Assembly: GCA_977018835.1 (NCBI GenBank)
Contig: OZ361259.1
Coordinates: forward strand, 3,286,001-3,350,000
Direction of reading: 5' to 3'
From: Minutocellus sp. GHC0000111
Lineage: Eukaryota
DNA length: 64,000 bases
In this document: piece by piece, positions 11,637-44,497 of the stretch
Layout: each line of letters begins with the position of its first letter
Numbering within the stretch: the first letter of the stretch is position 1
Program-made: the position numbers and the translations under genes
Notes under the pieces: generated by a model
What the model saw: only the letters and a program-made list of their open reading frames with translations
Database searches by the model: none
Told to the model about the DNA's origin: nothing

Positions 11637-11698
11637 GTGAAACTAGCTAGACCTCCTCGATAAACGAGTGAAACTAGCTAGACCTCCTCGATAAACGA
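11637..11698. repeat. Perfect 31-bp tandem duplication (gtgaaactagctagacctcctcgataaacga x2) covering the stop codon of the TPR-RING gene
   Basis: Directly visible at 11637-11667 and 11668-11698. Confidence 0.95.
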
Positions 11699-13347
11699 GC
11701 CATCTCTCATTACTCGCATTGATCTCTGCTGTCTGCAGACTGGGCAGGGCATCTGCTTTATAATACGATGCCCGAGGAGAGCTTGTGCCATGTCTTCGGT
11801 TGATATCTTCCTTCCACAATACTGCCGGAAACAATGGTTGTGAAACAAATGGTCACAGCTCAGTGGATTGACAACAGTACCTTCCACCCCAAGCAGCGAT
11901 TCCATACATATAGGATCTGAAGATCAACCTCGCGCCCGGTCTGTTTGAGAGCCTCCGCAAGGCTTACAATATTTCTCTTGTCATCTTCTGCATCTTCATC
12001 TGATCTCGGAGTGTATGTTGGAAGGGGGCGTGACATCCAGGAAAGGCGTCTTGCTCGAATGAGTGTTCGCAACATTTCAATCTCCATTTCCGAGTTGCCC
12101 GCGATATTATAACCGCGGATGCAGGCAGACAAGAGGGTACTTATCATCGGAAAATGCACCACCTCAGTGGAACCGTTGAAAAGTTTTCTACACGTGCTTG
12201 ATACGGCCTCGCACATTTTGTTGACGTGATCGCAATCCATCTTCTTCAGAGTGACGGTCTCGAAAGTCGATTTGATAGAGTTCACATACTGTCTCACATC
12301 TTCCAAATTCAACCCTATCCATTCAACAACAACCAGCCTCAAACGAATGTCAACCATACAGCGCAACACGCCCATGTAGATCATGCCGGGTTTCAAAATA
12401 GTTCAACGAAGACTGAAGTAGGTCAACACCAGCAAGGAGTATTCTTCTGGTTTCCGCCAACCGATTATACAAGCTTGCTCGTTCGTCGTCACTCCACAAT
12501 TTGATTGTAGGGATGTAGGTAGACAAATTGATTTGTGACCGAATCATTTCCTTTATCATGAGGGCTCGGGCTTGCTTGCAATTTAATTCTGCGTGTAAAG
12601 TATTTGGAAGGAAGCCGGCCTCGTGTCCATCATCAGATTTGTCAGAAACATCATTCTGTCACCTTTCAGGAAAGGTCGACAGAGTGCTGCGGCCTCCGAA
12701 CATAACTCAACACTCCTATCGAGATGACCAGCAGCTGAAGCGATTGATATTTTGTTGGGACATTGAGCGTAGTTGTCTCTACACAGAGCCTTTGCAAGAA
12801 TAATTTCAATCTCAGCTCGCTCCAATATGATCTTGACCTTGAGATGAGAATCCAATTTGCCTGAACCAATCGGGGAAATCTCGGAAAGTTCGCGGGTAGC
12901 ATTGACCATCGCAGCGAAATCTACAGAATCTTTGGCGGAGTGCAGCCGATCCAACTTTTCATAAACTTGTGCCAAAAGTTCGTCATAGTATCTACATAGC
13001 CGATTAGCGTGATTGGGGCGCTCATGGACTGTATCATTTTCTTCGTCGATCGTGAGAGCAAGTGTGCAGTGTTCCTTTGCCTTGATGCCCATGCCAAGCA
13101 TCAAGTAGCATTCTGCCGAATTAGAATGCATAGTAAGTTGAAGAGATCGGATAGAGTCTAGAACGCCGTTGTTTCCATCAGAAATATACCCGTCATTTGC
13201 AAGTTTCTCCTCGGCACGATTCAGATGCCAGGGACCGTCGATGTACACATGGATTGCACCATCAAAACTATCTTCGTGGAATAGCTTGTTGCCTTCTTCC
13301 CTTCTCTTATGCGCTGTTTCAAAATACTCTTCCCATGCAGCAGTCAT
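11678..13347 (-). pseudogene. TPR-like N-terminus + C-terminal RING finger protein, broken into about 4 frames; paralog of 32807-34460
   Basis: AHKRREEGNKLF...HSNSAECYL (TPR-like) and PLSCDHLFHNHC...MPCPVCR (RING). Frame changes near 12600, 12400 and 11910. May be assembly error rather than a true pseudogene. Confidence 0.65.
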
Positions 13348-22229: not shown

Positions 22230-22970
22230 GATGGCTCTCTCCGCACGACTGCGACTTGGGCATTGTCGGAACGGAGCATGCGCGTGACGCCATTGTGCCG
22301 AGTGAAATCCGACAAGGTCTTGACGAAAGAAGATTCAGACTGCATGCCACAGACGGCGTCAAACCTTTCGCCAGTGGCTCGGAGGAGTTGACTGATCTTG
22401 CGCTCGACGCGCTGGTCCAAGCAGGTGGTCCATGCAAGCGCTCGACCTCCTTGAGCTCCGGACAAAGCATCATGAGCAAGCTCAATGATGGAACGATCAG
22501 GAACGATGGCCTTGTGTTGAGTCCAGCGTCTGGGCCTCCAATTGTCAAAGAAGTCCCAATCAGTGACGTCATGCAACGCCATCCGCCGAGCAAGAACGCA
22601 ATCCTTCACATCGGAAGGTCCGAACCGCCGCAAGGCACACAGCAGGCGACCGAACATCAGCGACCCAGCCACGGCAGTGTGGTCCCCAACTGTCTCCTCC
22701 GTCGTTTCGGAGCCGCGGATGTCGGCGGCGGTGGCCAGCGCGTCGAGAGCGGCGGTGTCCGTCATGGTTGTCTATTATGGCTGTGTTGGTTGTTTTTCAA
22801 CGCGGTGAAAGCAAGGCAAGATTTTTTATGAAAAAAAATAAAAAAAAAACAAAAGAGCGGCGGCTCGTGGTCCCGCTCAGGCCGAGGGGAGCTTCCCCCC
22901 GAAAACCAAAACCCCGCGGCTCAAATGAACCGGTAACATGAGGTCATCGCCGAAATCAATTGAATGACAT
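22230..22970 (-). mobile_element. Internally deleted Ty1/Copia relic: 5' leader, putative gag start (ATG 22765) fused to an integrase-core fragment
   Basis: AVCGMQSESSFVKTLSDFTRHNGVTRMLRSDNAQV resembles the diatom Copia integrase core (VYGM.SE..F..TL.DFIR..G....L.SDNA). Poly-T leader upstream. Boundaries are approximate and no LTR pair was found. Confidence 0.65.
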
Positions 22971-23275
22971 GTATACCGATCTACATAATATCATGCAACA
23001 TTCTTGTATTTTCTCGTTACATTGTACATGAACATACTACTTTGGAAAAGAAAGTCTATATAATAGATCTTTGTTACCAAATGCATATAAATATAAAGCA
23101 TATTACAATTAGTAATTCGGCCGTACAACGCACTTGCTTGCGAATCAAACTCAAATTCCGTACATTATGAAGAACATTCGACTCGTGACAGGGCTGACAT
23201 GGCAAAGAAGGCATTAAATTCGAACATGATCCGAGTATAATCACATTTAAAAAAATTGGTAAAATGCAGTCATTG

Positions 23276-37694: not shown

Positions 37695-38095
37695 GGTCAA
37701 CCGTGAAAATGGCAGCATTAGCAAGCAGTCCGGTTCAGAATGAGGGGGCTGGTTGCAGGCTTCAGAAAAATGGGGAATTATTCTGATTTCCCCCTGAAAC
37801 ACCTCACGCACGGTATCAGCCAACTTCACAACTTCGCTCTCTGGTCGAGAGGCGCAGAGCGAGCGTTCCAGCGTTCCTCGGGAGGCAGAGCAGCTTCCTC
37901 TCTTGTCTTGCAACACGCCACCTCTGAGACCTTTCTTCTTTTAGGTTGCTCCCCGTTAGGCGCTTTCGGTAGAGCTGATAGGACGAAATATTGTGGCAAT
38001 CGCAAGGCGCATCTGATTGTTCCTCGGCTCCCTCGGCTCGCTATTTGAATTTGGACATTTTTTCCATTACTTATTATACAACACTACCAGCAAAG

Positions 38096-40639
38096 ATGAA
38101 CACTTCCTTGATCATCCGCTTAATTCTCCCGCTTGGCCTCTCGGCCATCCTCATCGTCACAACTCTGTACGCCTTCCGGCATGTCTTCCTCGTCACCGAC
38201 ACGTACCTGTCCACGCACGGCGATTGGGATTACTTATGGGACGACGCCAAGAACTTTTACAACAATGCACACATGAAACGACCGGCGTTCACCATCGCCA
38301 ACATTCGATGGGCGTGGAGTGCCGATGGGCAGATACTGGGCGTGTGGGAGCCCGTCAGCCTAATGGTCAAGATGATCCTTCATGATGTGCTGGACTTTTC
38401 CGCTGCACGGGTGGAAGGTGGTGGCGGTGGAGATGGAGATGGGGCAATAATGATAACAGCGACATCAGGACCGAGACTGTATCGGATGCTGTCGGCATGC
38501 TGGCACACATTCAATGTGGTGCTGGCGTTTTGGGTTGGTCTTATGTTTGTTCGGTCGGTGAATGATTACGACTACATTGCCCAACAACTGAATCAAGTGA
38601 AGGAAGAGGGCAAAATGAAAACGAACGGCGGGGGTCAATCGACCGGGAAGGGTAAGACGAATGACTCGCAATTGACCCAACGAGGGAAGAAGGACAATGG
38701 CAAAAGGGCTCAAAATGGACAACGTTCATCTAGTGCAATGGATTTCGGGGCGGCCAAGGGGGCACTGTTGTATCTTTATCGGCACGAAGCTACAATCACC
38801 ATGGGTCTGTTCCTTGGAACCTTGACCTTCTTTGCCGTCCATCCCCTTCAGGCTCAGACCATTGGTTGGATATCCTGTCTGTCCTACATTCTGAGTTGTA
38901 CCTTTGCTCTCATATCGTTCTGGGGTTATGTCGCTCATCGTGACATTATGCGAAAGTGGCGAAGACATCTTCGGTCCGGGGGACGACCTGGAGAAGTGCG
39001 TGGTCCTTACGTGTTTGGGAGCATTACGGATTCGCAAAGCATTGCGGGAAAGAAAAAACGATCTGCGGGTCGATCAGTGCCACAGATTCCGCTGGAGGAT
39101 CGAAGTGAGATTATGTACTGGACGCTCCTGAAGTTTATTTCACTCTTTTGTAATATATGTGCCACATTTTGCAAGAGTCCAGCGGTTACCCTCCCGTTGT
39201 TATTTATTTTTGTTGATGTTTTCATCTACAGCTATCCTCTTTCGTCAAGACCGATGCCTACACAGCCCGATGCAAATGGAAAAGGAAAGAAGATTGCGGG
39301 CGTTGGCGCGCTCGATAAGCAGAGCCGAGGCATGAGACTGTTGTTTCCAAATCGAGTTCTTGGCGATTTCAGAAAAGTTGCATTTCCAAAGCTGTGGAAT
39401 CTCACTTGTCGTGCGATCATATCATGGGTCCCGTTTCTCTTCACGTCATTCATCGTGACTGTGTTCGTGGTCAAAGGCAATACTAAGCATCTGCTTGACG
39501 TTCAAACGCCATTTGAAAAGGTGCAGAAATCGGCCTGGGCACTGTGCTGGTATGCAACGAAAATCATATGTCCCTCGCATCTGGTTGCGGCAGTCGAAAA
39601 GATGAGTTTCAGCTTTATTGATCACTGGGAAGTGGCTGTAGCTCTCATTGCAGTGCCCTATGCCACACTGACGATATTGGCGTATTCAACTTCGAATGCC
39701 TCTGGAAGAGTTGTGGCTTGTTCGTATGGGTGCTTTGTCGCCATTCTACTCCCAAGCATGGGCTTGATTCAGCATGGGCGGCTATTTCTCGCAGCGGATC
39801 GTTATGCGTACCTGCCCTTGTTGATTTTTGGTCCTCTTTTCGCAGCATTGTCCGGGTCTCTTTACTCGGCATTCAATTCATTTGGGTTGCTAACTGTCCT
39901 TGTTCTCGATGGCGCGATTCCATTGGAAATAGCGGTAGACTCGGGGACGCCTGTAAGGTGAGATCTGTCCGCAGTCGCCGAAGGGGCTTTATTTATCACG
40001 AATCCAAACGCTGCGGCGAGGCGAAGCGCTAAGGCGTGTCTAGTTCTGTCCTGTGTTAGTATGACAGGGACATCAGGTTGGTTTGCGAGCAACCTAACGC
40101 CCCAAACCCTCCTTCCCTGGAGAAATTCCATGCTTCTTTGGGCTAAAAATGCAGAGATTTTCCCTGACACCGAAAATGCGCACGTTAATTTATCTGCGGC
40201 GTATGTAAATGGCGGCAATCCATCCACAGAAGATCTCGAGAAAGGCCTCCATCATTCACAAAAGGCATTGGAGATGCGGCCAGATAGCGCCAAATACAAG
40301 GCAAACCTCGGGATCCTATACGCCAGGCTTGGAGAATATGATATTGGAATTCCCTTCTTGCAGAAATCGCTGCAAGAACATCCCTTGACTCGATGGTCTC
40401 CACTTATGCATAAGATCTTGGCACAGTGCTTGGATAGAACAGGGCAATTTGAGGATGCCAAGCATCATTATGACACGGCCATTCGACTCGGAGAGAAGTC
40501 CGCCGAAGCTGAGTTGCAAAGAATGATGGGAAGGATAAAGAAGTTAGATGCAGAGCGGGCGAAGAAATTAGACAAAGAAAAACCAATAGTTCAAGTGGTA
40601 GGGGGCAATGGGCAAACCATCAAGGTAAATGTCGGGTAA
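38096..40639 (+). CDS. TMTC-like GT-C membrane protein O-mannosyltransferase with C-terminal TPRs; in-frame TGA at 39959-39961
   Basis: FAVHPLQAQTIGWIS, K.PAVTLP, ADRYAYLP, WRNSMLLW, then TPRs (ANLGILYARLG). The frame is continuous across the TGA. Confidence 0.8.
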
Positions 40640-40649
40640 GATCAACAAT

Positions 40650-42070
40650 AGAAGCGAAGCGTTATCTTAGATATATCCCATGTATGTTATTCAGAGCTTG
40701 AGCGGTGGTTTGGATAGTCACTGATCTTGCAAGAATGCCTTTCCCAGCAGCAAAATATGTGACACGCGAAATTTTGATGTTCCGGACTGCAGGACAGGAT
40801 GTGCACATCGTAGGAGCATCAGCGAAGCTAAATCCAACACCACAAGCATAGGATCGCCTTACATGTAAATACGATGCATAAGAGGTTTTCAAAGCTTGAG
40901 CGGCGGTTTCTTTCTCTGCGCGCTTCTCGAGATCACCTATTATACTTCGAGGGGGCTGGCGGTTCAAAAAAACTCCAAAATCCGGGACTCTAAGGGACTA
41001 GAGGCATCAAAATCGCAAGAAGTGAGTGCAGACTTTAACATAGAACCACATCGTAACCTTAGACATGATCTAAAGGAGGTATCAAAGGCTTGGGCGAAGG
41101 TTTCCTCAACTACTTGGCCTCCAAGGATGACTATTATTGTTCCCGAAGGTCAACGAAGGCAAATCTTGAGATTTTTTGCGGGCTGGTAATATGTAAAACT
41201 CGAGGTTACGAGTGCAAACTCCAACATAGGAGCATATTGTTACCTTGTGTATGACCCCCGCAATATATTCAAAGCTTGGTCGAAGGTTTCGACTGCTACA
41301 GGGCCCTCATGGTTGCCTATGATGGTTCCCGGGGGGCTGATGATGCCGAAAACTGGGGTTTTGGCGAAGTGATGGCATATGAACCTCGATCTTATGGGTG
41401 CAAACTCCAACATAGAACCACAGCGCAAGTTTACGTAACACCCACAGAAGGTATTCAAAGCCTGGACAGAGGATTCGGCTGCTACTTGGCCTCCAAAGGT
41501 TACTGTTATTGTGATCGGAGGTCAATTAGAGAAAATTCTGGGAATCTGGGTGGGAGGACGGCACATAAATCTCGATCTTATGAGTGCAAGCTTAATAATA
41601 GAAGCATGGCGTTACCTTTGGTATGTCCCAAGGAAGGTACCCGAGGCTTGGGCGAAGTTTTCCACTACTGATCCGCTCTCAAGGACAACTAGGTCGTCAG
41701 CGCCAGATTTGGGAAGTTTTTGCGAGATAGTGATGCATAAAACTAGAAAAAATACATGTAAGTATAAAGTCAAGCATCGATGCACAGGGGTGCCTTAGGT
41801 ATGACCCAAATAGGAGGTATCTAAGGTTTGGGCGAACATTTTCACTGCTGATTGGCTCTCAAGAGAGACTACAACCACATGTTATCACCGCGTGGTAATG
41901 ACGCCCCTTGATTTTGAGATTCGGGGCAAATAAATGAAATTCGCTGTTGAAGTGTAATTAATTTCTAACACAGACTCACAGCGTTACCTGATGATCCCCC
42001 GGAAGCAATTAGTCAAGGCTTGGGGGTAGAGTTCCAGCACTTATCGCCCCCCAAGGGTGGCTATCACTCC
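40650..42070. repeat. Degenerate tandem array of about 8 units, period 180-198 bp
   Basis: The gcttg-like core of the conserved aggtattcaaagcttgggcgaaggtttc block recurs at 40696, 40894, 41088, 41274, 41460, 41646, 41826 and 42018. gagtgcaaactccaacatag recurs at about 41025, 41210, 41396 and 41582. Confidence 0.85.
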
Positions 42071-42169
42071 CGGCGGTCTTCGTGGCAAACATTTTGTATT
42101 TCTGGGAGAAGTGGGCACTAGAGAGACTACACGGCCTTGTCGTATGTGAATGTTGTAACAAACCGATTA

Positions 42170-44199
42170 TTAAAATAAATATACCACGATGGATAGAGCC
42201 ATCTTCATCATCACCAATAAATTCATTGGCACATTTCTATCAGATAGACTACTGGTCGTTTCTACCTCTTCCTCTTTCTCTTCTACTTTATCATCTTCCA
42301 ATTCAAGAAACGCATTCACTCTTGCAAGCAAGTCTGGATTTGTAGCAATCTCAACGACCATGTCTCCCATCGGCTGTTTTAGTGTGTCGATAAATTCTGG
42401 GCCGACAATGAGGGTAGGTATCGGTGTATTGATATTTATTAGAAGCACCTGGACTTCTTGCCCTGCTTTGATAGAGAAGGATGGGTTATCAATTGTTGTG
42501 CCGTTTAGAATCGCAGTAGTAAAGTTCGTTCCATCCACCTCCTCCAGGGCACCGTCGAGCATTTCCTCATTATAAAAACTGTGAAAATAATTGGGTGGAC
42601 TGCATGGGCTGCTGGTTGTAGTCCTCAAGCCAGAGAAATGAACCGGGGTCAACACCTTGGTTGAGCGGTGAGGACCAATGCATCAAGATCTGTTGGATGT
42701 TAAAAGCATTATCCCACTCGAAATTTGTGTTGGTTAGCACGATTTTCATGGGTTTTGATAGATCGGCCTCTGACGAAACGTGATAGGCTCCAACCGTCGT
42801 GGCAAGAGTGGTGGTATCGGTGGCGATCCCATCGAGGAAATGCAAATCAGTTTCACCACAAGGGTTCGGCCACTGGCTGCAAACCGAGAATCCAAAGACA
42901 AGTTCCGAATCATATAGCCGATCCGAGACCGGACCATCAAGAGCACTTAAAGCAGCCTTCTTTTTTTACAAGACTCAGGGTAGAATCATTCTCAATACGA
43001 TATCTGGCCAAGGACAACGATTGAGCAAACACCGATGGTGCGAGGCCGCTGAAGGACCCCAACAGAGCTGAGCTGGTGGCCGCAGCTTGCACAATAGATG
43101 TAGCACCAGATGTTGAAAAGGGCTCCTGAAAAGGCTCCGCCGGTAACAGCGGCCGACCAAATGCGTCAGTGCGAGGCGCGGTTGTCGACGCATCATCGAC
43201 AGGAGGAAAGAGATCAAACTCATCCCAATCCGAGAAGTCAAAGCCAGACGAATTGTCGGGAGCCATTGGGTTGGACACCAGCAACTCGGATCCGGCTGGA
43301 CCGATCCACCAACCCTTGATCGGCGTTGCATCATCCGATGTCACAACATACGATGCTGGTATGGGCGTTGTATAATACGATTCTGCTGTTGGGCCGACGT
43401 AAACATACGCATCGGCTGATCCCTCCTTCAATTCTCGTGCCGTCGGTGTCAGACCAGTCTGTGTAATCAAATCGACATTTTGCAGCGGCCCAATCCGACC
43501 CTGGGCATTGGCAGTTCTCGTAGCAAAGTCAGCATCACCAAAGGCCACCGACGTTTCGTACAGCATATCCTCAATGAAGGATGCCCAATCTCCACCGTAG
43601 GCAATCACCAGCTCGCATATGCTGATGAGGTTGCCATCGTCGACATCGGGCAGATCCTGACATATGGCCGTGACGTTGCTCCCCGCCAGACTGGCACTGG
43701 CACGTGCGGTTAGATTAGCGTACGAGTCCAACCATAGATCCACGAAATCACGCAAGTCTTCGGGAGATGATGTGACGGTGGCATCGTAGAATGGCTGGGA
43801 GTAGAAGAGTTGTGTCGAGTACCACGAGGCTGGGATTGTGGCATAAATGGAAGGTGAGATTGTAGCCGGCAAGATATGGAAGTGGGTGTGAGCAGAAGGG
43901 AAAGCTTTTGTATGCAAAAGCGAAGAGCCGACAGAGATACTGCCAAAAATGATCATGAATGAATACACCTCACCTCCCGACGTGGTCGATATCGCCGACA
44001 AGAGCGCAGGCTCAGCAGCACCTCCACCGGCGGCGCTGGGAGGGAACAGACCGGCTTGATGGAACAGATTGCCAAAGCCAAAACATGCGAACATGGATCG
44101 CCATCCACCTCCGGTGAATGTCCAGCGAATTACAGCATCGGATGCTGATGCAGCCATGTCTTCGGCGGCGCTTTGGGGCCTTGCCATTGACAATGCCAT
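42170..44199 (-). CDS. Patatin/cPLA2-lysophospholipase-like hydrolase; 144-nt intron 43830-43973; two homopolymer frameshifts (~42962, ~42575)
   Basis: TGGGWRS oxyanion motif; spliced TTSGASW nucleophile motif; FLDGIATD catalytic Asp; hydrophobic C-terminus. Confidence 0.7.
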
Positions 44200-44497
44200 G
44201 GTGGGCTTGCGCTGGTGGTGGTGGTAGCGGCATTATCTCCGGGTTTCCCGGTTCAAACCAGTCATGCTGCAATGCTCAGCACATCTCGTGCCGACAAGTC
44301 AAGCAACCAATCGACCCACCACTCAACCGCAGCCAAAGCAGACAGGTGTTGCTTCGTACCACCCGCTGCTATTTTCTTTACGGTACATTTGTTTTGTCGG
44401 CATCCGTTTCCGGCTCGAATTATAATATTCATTTGCGAATCTCACTCACGTATCTCACCGACCGTCGAGAATTTTTGGCCGTACCTGAGGAGCAATT

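What the first reader, a model, noticed from the sequence alone, without database searches (positions are those of the whole stretch)
40650..42070. Degenerate nucleosome-length (~186 bp) tandem array between convergent genes
Seen: eight units with spacings 198, 194, 186, 186, 186, 180 and 192 bp. Units are strongly diverged yet length is conserved. Units 3 and 5 share tacttggcctccaa..gt/gatxact.ttattgt, and units 6 and 7 share actxctgat..gctctcaag. The region is more AT-rich than its flanks and no frame stays open across it. Inference: a nucleosome-positioning or centromere-like satellite (characterised diatom centromeres are short low-GC regions), or a decayed ~62-aa repeat gene, since six of seven spacings are multiples of 3.
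Basis: partly seen in the sequence, partly recalled or inferred. Interest (0 to 1): 0.7.

Follow-up and report, generated by a model that had tools for sequence, protein, structure and literature searches.

The report
Decayed dispersed 186-bp diatom repeat array
Eight worn copies of a ~186-base DNA repeat fill the gap between two genes of a diatom-like alga; related repeats occur on other contigs and keep the length but not a reading frame, so this is likely a leftover of a mobile, satellite-like element rather than a centromere or a dead gene.

Summary
The array is real: eight units at 40640-42135, spacings 198/194/186/186/186/180/192, 38-66% alike. It is one old member of a dispersed family. 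Other contigs 80-90% alike cover its best-kept core in three DNA data sets (12, 8 and 9 contigs at one position). Nineteen unnamed ORF calls carry or adjoin the unit. In them the period is 185-188 nt in 8 of 9 cases, only 2 of these 8 in frame, substitutions look neutral, and four share a non-unit head, three a tail, read in different frames. Present-day coding is therefore unlikely. A centromere is disfavoured: no 100-bp window is at or below 32% GC, and a haplotype that skips or replaces 40236-41908 holds about 30% of depth in three runs. RNA contigs cover both flanking genes but not units 1-7 (weak hint). Best reading: a decayed short satellite-like array, likely spread inside a non-autonomous mobile element, built like the oyster HINEs; the termini could not be tested. 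Length is somewhat steadier than neutral indels predict, so a nucleosome constraint stays open.

The parts
40630..40827 (.). unit 1 (degenerate; likeness starts about 40640, right at the stop codon of the left gene)
40828..41021 (.). unit 2 (degenerate; 194-nt spacing breaks frame)
41022..41207 (.). unit 3 (186 nt; core 41070-41145 is the part matched by many other contigs)
41208..41393 (.). unit 4 (186 nt, colinear without gaps with units 3 and 5)
41394..41579 (.). unit 5 (186 nt)
41580..41759 (.). unit 6 (180 nt, internal deletion)
41760..41951 (.). unit 7 (192 nt)
41952..42137 (.). unit 8 (degenerate; ends just before the poly(A) site of the right gene; one RNA contig covers 41952-42118)
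40236..41908 (.). stretch skipped or replaced in a second haplotype (1673 nt; about 30% of local depth in three DNA data sets; middle of that contig not known)
   Evidence: table 5
37982..40639 (+). left flanking gene: hydrophobic N-part plus C-terminal TPR repeats (TMTC-like by recall, not from a call); window allele has an in-frame TGA at 39959-39961
42147..44232 (-). right flanking gene, no Pfam family; poly(A) junction at about 42147; split over three frames in the window allele

Best explanation
This is an old, decayed eight-unit copy of a dispersed ~186-bp repeat family of a diatom-like alga, likely non-coding and likely spread as the internal array of a non-autonomous mobile element. 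Shown: units diverged to 38-66%; related units lie on many other contigs; relatives keep a 185-188-nt period, change frame, vary in unit number (2 to at least 4; 8 here) and some have a shared head and tail. Inferred: the element was copied as head + n units + tail by a transposase supplied in trans (rolling-circle Helentron-like is the best-known model), unit number changed by slippage or unequal exchange, one copy landed in the promoter-free gap between two gene ends where it does little harm, lost its recognisable ends and now drifts. The nucleosome-sized monomer would be favoured weakly by chromatin packing, as is proposed for satellites in general; the array here is probably dispensable.
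For: Dispersal: at 41108, 12, 8 and 9 other contigs with other letters in runs X1, X3, X5; a 2254-nt contig holds two units in tandem; their depths rise and fall with the window's depth across the three runs. Three loose ends of those contigs, translated by hand, match P0128/P0122 at 9 of 10, 8 of 9 and 8 of 10 residues, tying the database relatives to the same family. 15 of 20 HMM hits are unit-like, short, unnamed ORF calls; 4 more came. Periods 186,132,185,185,187,186,188,187,185. Mean BLOSUM of mismatches -0.93, neutral simulation -0.93 to -0.98, enzyme control +0.09. Shared head: 5 of 6 pairs beat all 200 shuffles, 4 of them across frames; shared tail: 3 of 3 pairs, 2 across frames. No Pfam, PDB, Rfam, tRNA or Atlas match. 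Same layout as oyster HINEs: short arrays of 138-181-bp monomers, mostly 2-5 units, between conserved flanks (PMC7492417, passages).
Against: No terminus, target site, empty site or transposase was seen: head and tail are absent from the window and no DNA of the younger copies could be fetched. The four head-bearing contigs could be one orthologous locus in related strains rather than dispersed insertions. Codon-position bias p=0.01-0.02 is unexplained. Indels are fewer than neutral (about 7-8 gap events against about 23 expected over 8 units), and a 10-bp WW/SS rhythm is borderline (p=0.046), which hints at some constraint. The enzyme control was at 56% identity, the repeats at 44%.
Confidence: 0.6

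Rival explanations
1. Satellite islands spread without a transposon, by segmental duplication or reinsertion of circular DNA; the shared head and tail are just co-duplicated or orthologous neighbours.
For: No termini or transposase seen; the window copy has neither head nor tail; low copy number; P0132 and P0145 show units rearranged by loss or exchange.
Against: Head and tail are both shared by three two-unit copies at 53-73% ORF identity, which is the layout of a carried array.
Confidence: 0.16
2. Short centromere or chromatin-organising island: a nucleosome-phased array, one per chromosome, that loads CENH3.
For: 1.5 kb, intergenic, no RNA contig over units 1-7 in 4 of 4 RNA runs (weak); among the lowest 4% of 1.5-kb windows for GC; period kept within 185-188 across distant lineages; number of related contigs is of the order of a chromosome count; F. 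solaris candidates are 1.4-2 kb, 36-42% GC, untranscribed (10.1101/2021.11.10.468027, passages).
Against: 0 windows of 100 bp at or below 32% GC in the array, minimum 37%, while 22.9-23.2 kb of the same window scores higher; P. tricornutum centromeres are low-GC and lack repeats or conserved features (10.1101/096016, passages); a haplotype without 40236-41908 holds 28%, 30% and about 35% of depth; two-unit copies exist.
Confidence: 0.09
3. Decayed gene for a protein with 62-residue repeats, read on the minus strand.
For: Six of seven spacings are 3n; codon positions 1/2/3 are 0.64/0.72/0.55 alike and pN/pS is 0.61 in one minus frame, the best of six; permutation p=0.019-0.023, simulation p=0.01.
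Against: That frame has 14 stops in 383 codons; no long intact multi-repeat relative among 1.84 billion representatives; 6 of 8 near-186 periods in relatives break frame, one of them in a JGI call; substitutions neutral; stop depletion not significant, p=0.125; plus frame gave 0 of 4327 candidates. A very old coding origin of the monomer is not excluded.
Confidence: 0.1
4. Co-opted spacer that stops read-through between the two convergent genes.
For: It fills the gap from the left stop codon (40639) to the right poly(A) site (42147), and RNA contigs stop at both edges.
Against: Common haplotype lacks most of it; no stable fold in any unit (z no lower than -1.6); other convergent pairs in the window have no such array.
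Confidence: 0.05

Closest known systems
Cg_HINE elements of Crassostrea gigas (non-autonomous Helentrons with central satellite-like arrays; PMC7492417)
   Same: Dispersed short arrays, monomer of nucleosome size, variable unit number, conserved left and right flanks, sited near genes.
   Different: Monomer 186 versus 138-181 bp; units far more diverged; subTIRs, microsatellite and palindrome not seen; host is a diatom-like alga; copy number appears low.
Diatom centromeres (P. tricornutum 10.1101/096016; F. solaris 10.1101/2021.11.10.468027)
   Same: Kilobase-size, intergenic, apparently untranscribed, GC below the local mean.
   Different: Only 46% GC with no window at or below 32%; built of eight repeats, whereas those centromeres have no or few repeats; missing from a common haplotype.
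Divergent monomeric satellites such as primate alpha satellite (recalled, not from a call)
   Same: Monomer length held while sequence diverges by tens of percent.
   Different: Eight units in a gene-dense region, not long arrays; no sign of homogenisation here.

Membership tests
HINE / non-autonomous Helentron | central array of 100-500-bp tandem repeats with variable copy number | tested here: met
   8 units here; 2 in P0128, P0157, P0123; at least 4 in P0145
HINE / non-autonomous Helentron | conserved flanks on both sides of the array | tested here: inconclusive
   shared head and tail in relatives, absent in the window copy; orthology not excluded
HINE / non-autonomous Helentron | 5' subTIR with inverted repeat and microsatellite; 3' subTIR with palindrome | not testable with these tools
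   no DNA of younger copies; nothing evident at the window ends
HINE / non-autonomous Helentron | empty sites and an autonomous partner | not testable with these tools
   the joint does not match the array ends; no genome held
diatom low-GC centromere | cluster of 100-bp windows at or below 32% GC | tested here: not met
   0 windows in the array, minimum 37% (criterion)
diatom low-GC centromere | one per chromosome, CENH3-bound, maintains episomes | not testable with these tools
   no genome, no ChIP data
diatom low-GC centromere | present on every copy of the chromosome | tested here: inconclusive
   about 30% haplotype skips 40236-41908, but its middle is not known
repeat-protein pseudogene | frame kept across units and protein-like substitutions among copies | tested here: not met
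   2 of 8 near-186 periods in frame; mismatch scores neutral
repeat-protein pseudogene | intact coding relative | tested here: not met
   none; only one minus frame had the exhaustive search
nucleosome-positioning satellite | monomer equals the nucleosome repeat length and phases nucleosomes | tested here: inconclusive
   period 185-188; 10-bp rhythm p=0.046, none over the whole array; no diatom repeat length found

The most novel reading that the evidence does not exclude
The arrays are short, nucleosome-phased satellite islands, one per chromosome, that serve as centromeres in this diatom lineage: a repeat-based diatom centromere, seeded by a mobile element and held at 186 bp by chromatin while its sequence drifts.
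Probability: 0.08. Interest if true: 0.8.

Novelty: new member of a known kind. Interest (0 to 1): 0.33.

Why it matters
As read here it is a modest finding: an apparently undescribed low-copy repeat family that extends the pattern of dispersed, nucleosome-sized satellite arrays with shared flanks, known from oysters and flies, to a diatom-like alga. My searches listed no paper on such a family in diatoms; they cover open-access papers only. It also shows that TRF-based repeat surveys miss such arrays and that gene callers make spurious proteins from them. If the steady 186-bp period proves to be set by nucleosomes or CENH3, it would give a natural test of why satellite monomers keep their length.

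Tried and rejected
No whole genome was held, so no genome-wide count or chromosome map. TRF: no hit. Rfam: nothing near a gathering score; tRNA scan 0. Pfam on eight read-through frames: one hit at E 0.32. PDB profiles: 0 and 0. Plus-frame profile against longer proteins: 0 of 4327 candidates, weak evidence. 5 of the 20 hits (P0121, P0131, P0134, P0136, P0140) are unrelated repetitive proteins and were dropped. DNA pattern in JGI metagenomes: 0; peptide patterns: 0 of 142 and, in viral contigs, 0 of 22 confirmed. Atlas on P0122: best feature score 0.82, TM under 0.5, chance level. Missing RNA cover over 40650-41950 in four RNA runs of two studies is only a weak hint. A mitochondrial repeat origin was rejected: related contigs have depth of the nuclear order and P0129 lies on a 1.7-Mb contig. 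An mTERF or LRR likeness (recalled) found no Pfam support. No target-site duplication longer than 7 nt at the ends. The 1673-nt skip is close to 9 x 186 but is out of phase with the real units; treated as chance. Four look-ups of earlier findings returned nothing.

Full report
Observation. The array is there as described. Ungapped repeat families give starts spaced 198, 194, 186, 186, 186, 180 and 192 nt. Alignment gives 38-66% pairwise identity, with units 3-5 colinear without a gap. Autocorrelation peaks at 372, 186 and 558 (0.39, 0.37, 0.35 against 0.25 +/- 0.017). A profile of the units finds the eight units and nothing else of note in the window; TRF misses them. The array runs from the stop codon of the left gene (40639) to about 42131, just before a poly(A) junction of the right gene at 42147. 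GC is 46% against 51% for the window. The host looks like a raphid pennate diatom: the best named relative of a nearby gene is from Epithemia at 62%. No whole genome was held.

It is a dispersed family. Of 18 listed runs, four DNA-type and four RNA runs were laid. In X1 and X3 one unitig spans 40207-41938 with 0 and 1 differences, so the array is not an assembly artefact. Other contigs, mostly 80-90% alike, pile on the core of unit 3: at position 41108, 12, 8 and 9 contigs with another letter in X1, X3 and X5, none in the thinly covered X11. One 2254-nt contig matches the core twice in tandem. Their depths rise and fall with the window's depth over the three runs, which suggests the same genome; depth is not a copy number.

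Relatives. A profile of the eight units read in one minus frame, with X at stops, hit 20 of 1.84 billion proteins. Fifteen are unit-like by tblastn; five are unrelated repetitive proteins and were dropped. The fifteen are short ORF calls from ENA, Logan or JGI, without a Pfam family or an informative name, and 14 of the 15 are singletons. Four more came from a cluster look-up and a second search. Three loose ends of the other contigs, translated by hand, match P0128 and P0122 at 9 of 10, 8 of 9 and 8 of 10 residues, so the younger copies in these runs are of the same subfamily.

Coding test. Within the window there is a weak signal: in one minus frame codon positions are 0.64, 0.72, 0.55 alike and pN/pS is 0.61, the best of six frames, p 0.01-0.02. 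Stop depletion is not significant (p 0.125). The relatives speak against it. Of 19 proteins scanned, 18 hold the core and 8 hold it more than once, giving periods 186, 132, 185, 185, 187, 186, 188, 187, 185; all core scores exceed the best of 60 shuffles. So 8 of 9 periods lie at 185-188 and only 2 of these 8 keep frame. Among 14 core segments (3 of 17 left out as doubtful or truncated) mismatches average -0.93 BLOSUM, as in neutral simulations (-0.93 to -0.98), against +0.09 for an enzyme family at somewhat higher identity. No intact long repeat protein turned up; only one frame had the exhaustive search. Predicted introns could in principle mimic a frame change, but one-base shifts shared by three proteins and one in a JGI call make that unlikely (inference).

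Element layout. Sequence upstream of the first unit is shared by P0123, P0124, P0128 and P0157 (5 of 6 pairs beat all 200 shuffles, 4 across frames), and sequence downstream of the last unit by P0123, P0128 and P0157 (3 of 3 pairs, 2 across frames). Neither matches window 40000-43000. Those copies are head + 2 units + tail; P0122 has at least 3 units, P0145 at least 4, the window 8. This is the layout of the oyster Cg_HINE elements: arrays mostly of 2-5 monomers of 138-181 bp between conserved flanks with subTIRs and a palindrome (PMC7492417, passages). Helitrons are annotated in at least one diatom (PMC11842555, passage). I could not fetch DNA of the younger copies, so the termini are untested, and the head-bearing contigs may be one orthologous locus. 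It works like a HINE-type carried array; membership is not shown.

Centromere test. P. tricornutum centromeres are low-GC, found by counting 100-bp windows at or below 32% GC, and lack repeats beyond occasional pairs (10.1101/096016, passages). F. solaris candidates are 36-42% GC and untranscribed (10.1101/2021.11.10.468027, passages). Supplements of both preprints, which list repeats in centromeres, were not seen. The array has no such window (minimum 37%). A contig joining 40235 to 41909 carries depth 51 against 129 (X1), 53 against 123 (X3) and 3.7 against about 6-7 (X5); flank depths in X1 are about their sum. Only about 30 letters on each side were laid, so it may be a deletion or a replacement; as a deletion it removes units 1-6, most of 7 and the TPR end of the left gene. 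An RNA unitig of another study also ends at 40236, and one RNA contig covers unit 8, which would be the 3' UTR of the short allele (weak). A common haplotype without the array is hard to square with an essential centromere.

Length constancy. The tree of eight units is 3.76 substitutions per site long; at the P. tricornutum ratio of about 30 substitutions per indel (PMC6604790, abstract) about 23 indels are expected and about 7-8 gap events are visible; in units 3-5, 4.7 are expected and none is seen (P 0.009). Alignments at this distance undercount gaps, so this is a hint only. A 10-bp WW/SS rhythm in units 3-5 is borderline (p 0.046, one of several tests) and absent over the whole array. I found no nucleosome repeat length for diatoms (PMC4504042, passages: only a band near 150 bp). 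A chromatin constraint on the monomer is plausible and untested.

Verdict. A real, decayed copy of a low-copy dispersed satellite-like family, likely carried by a non-autonomous element (0.6); spread without a carrier 0.16, coding origin 0.10, centromere 0.09, co-opted spacer 0.05. Paper searches (listings only unless named above; PMC12803021 passages) showed no description of such a family in diatoms. New member of a known kind; interest 0.33.

Noticed in passing
window 39959-39961: In-frame TGA splits the left gene (659 + 225 codons). X5 DNA and X8/X13 RNA contigs have C at 39959, which gives one 885-codon frame; X1 and X3 match the window. A segregating nonsense allele.
   Followed up: partly
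window 42572, 42961, 43091: The right gene is split over three frames in the window; other DNA and RNA contigs lack one base at 42572 and at 42961 (one 686-codon frame) and 12 bases at 43091. Both neighbours of the array thus carry disrupted alleles in the window's strain, which suggests relaxed selection here.
   Followed up: partly
window 40235/41909: The two haplotypes stand at about 70:30, not 50:50, in two data sets of organism A and about 65:35 in a metagenome: possible triploidy, local duplication or strain mix.
   Followed up: no
window 22750-23250: Lowest-GC stretch of the window (37% over 500 bp; highest count of windows at or below 32% GC, poly-A run at 22831); a better fit to the low-GC centromere criterion than the array, though weak.
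   Followed up: no
window 11637-11699: Perfect 31-bp tandem duplication.
   Followed up: no
runs X5-X8, X12: The alga's DNA and transcripts occur in data sets labelled sponge metagenome and marine metagenome; it may be sponge-associated.
   Followed up: no
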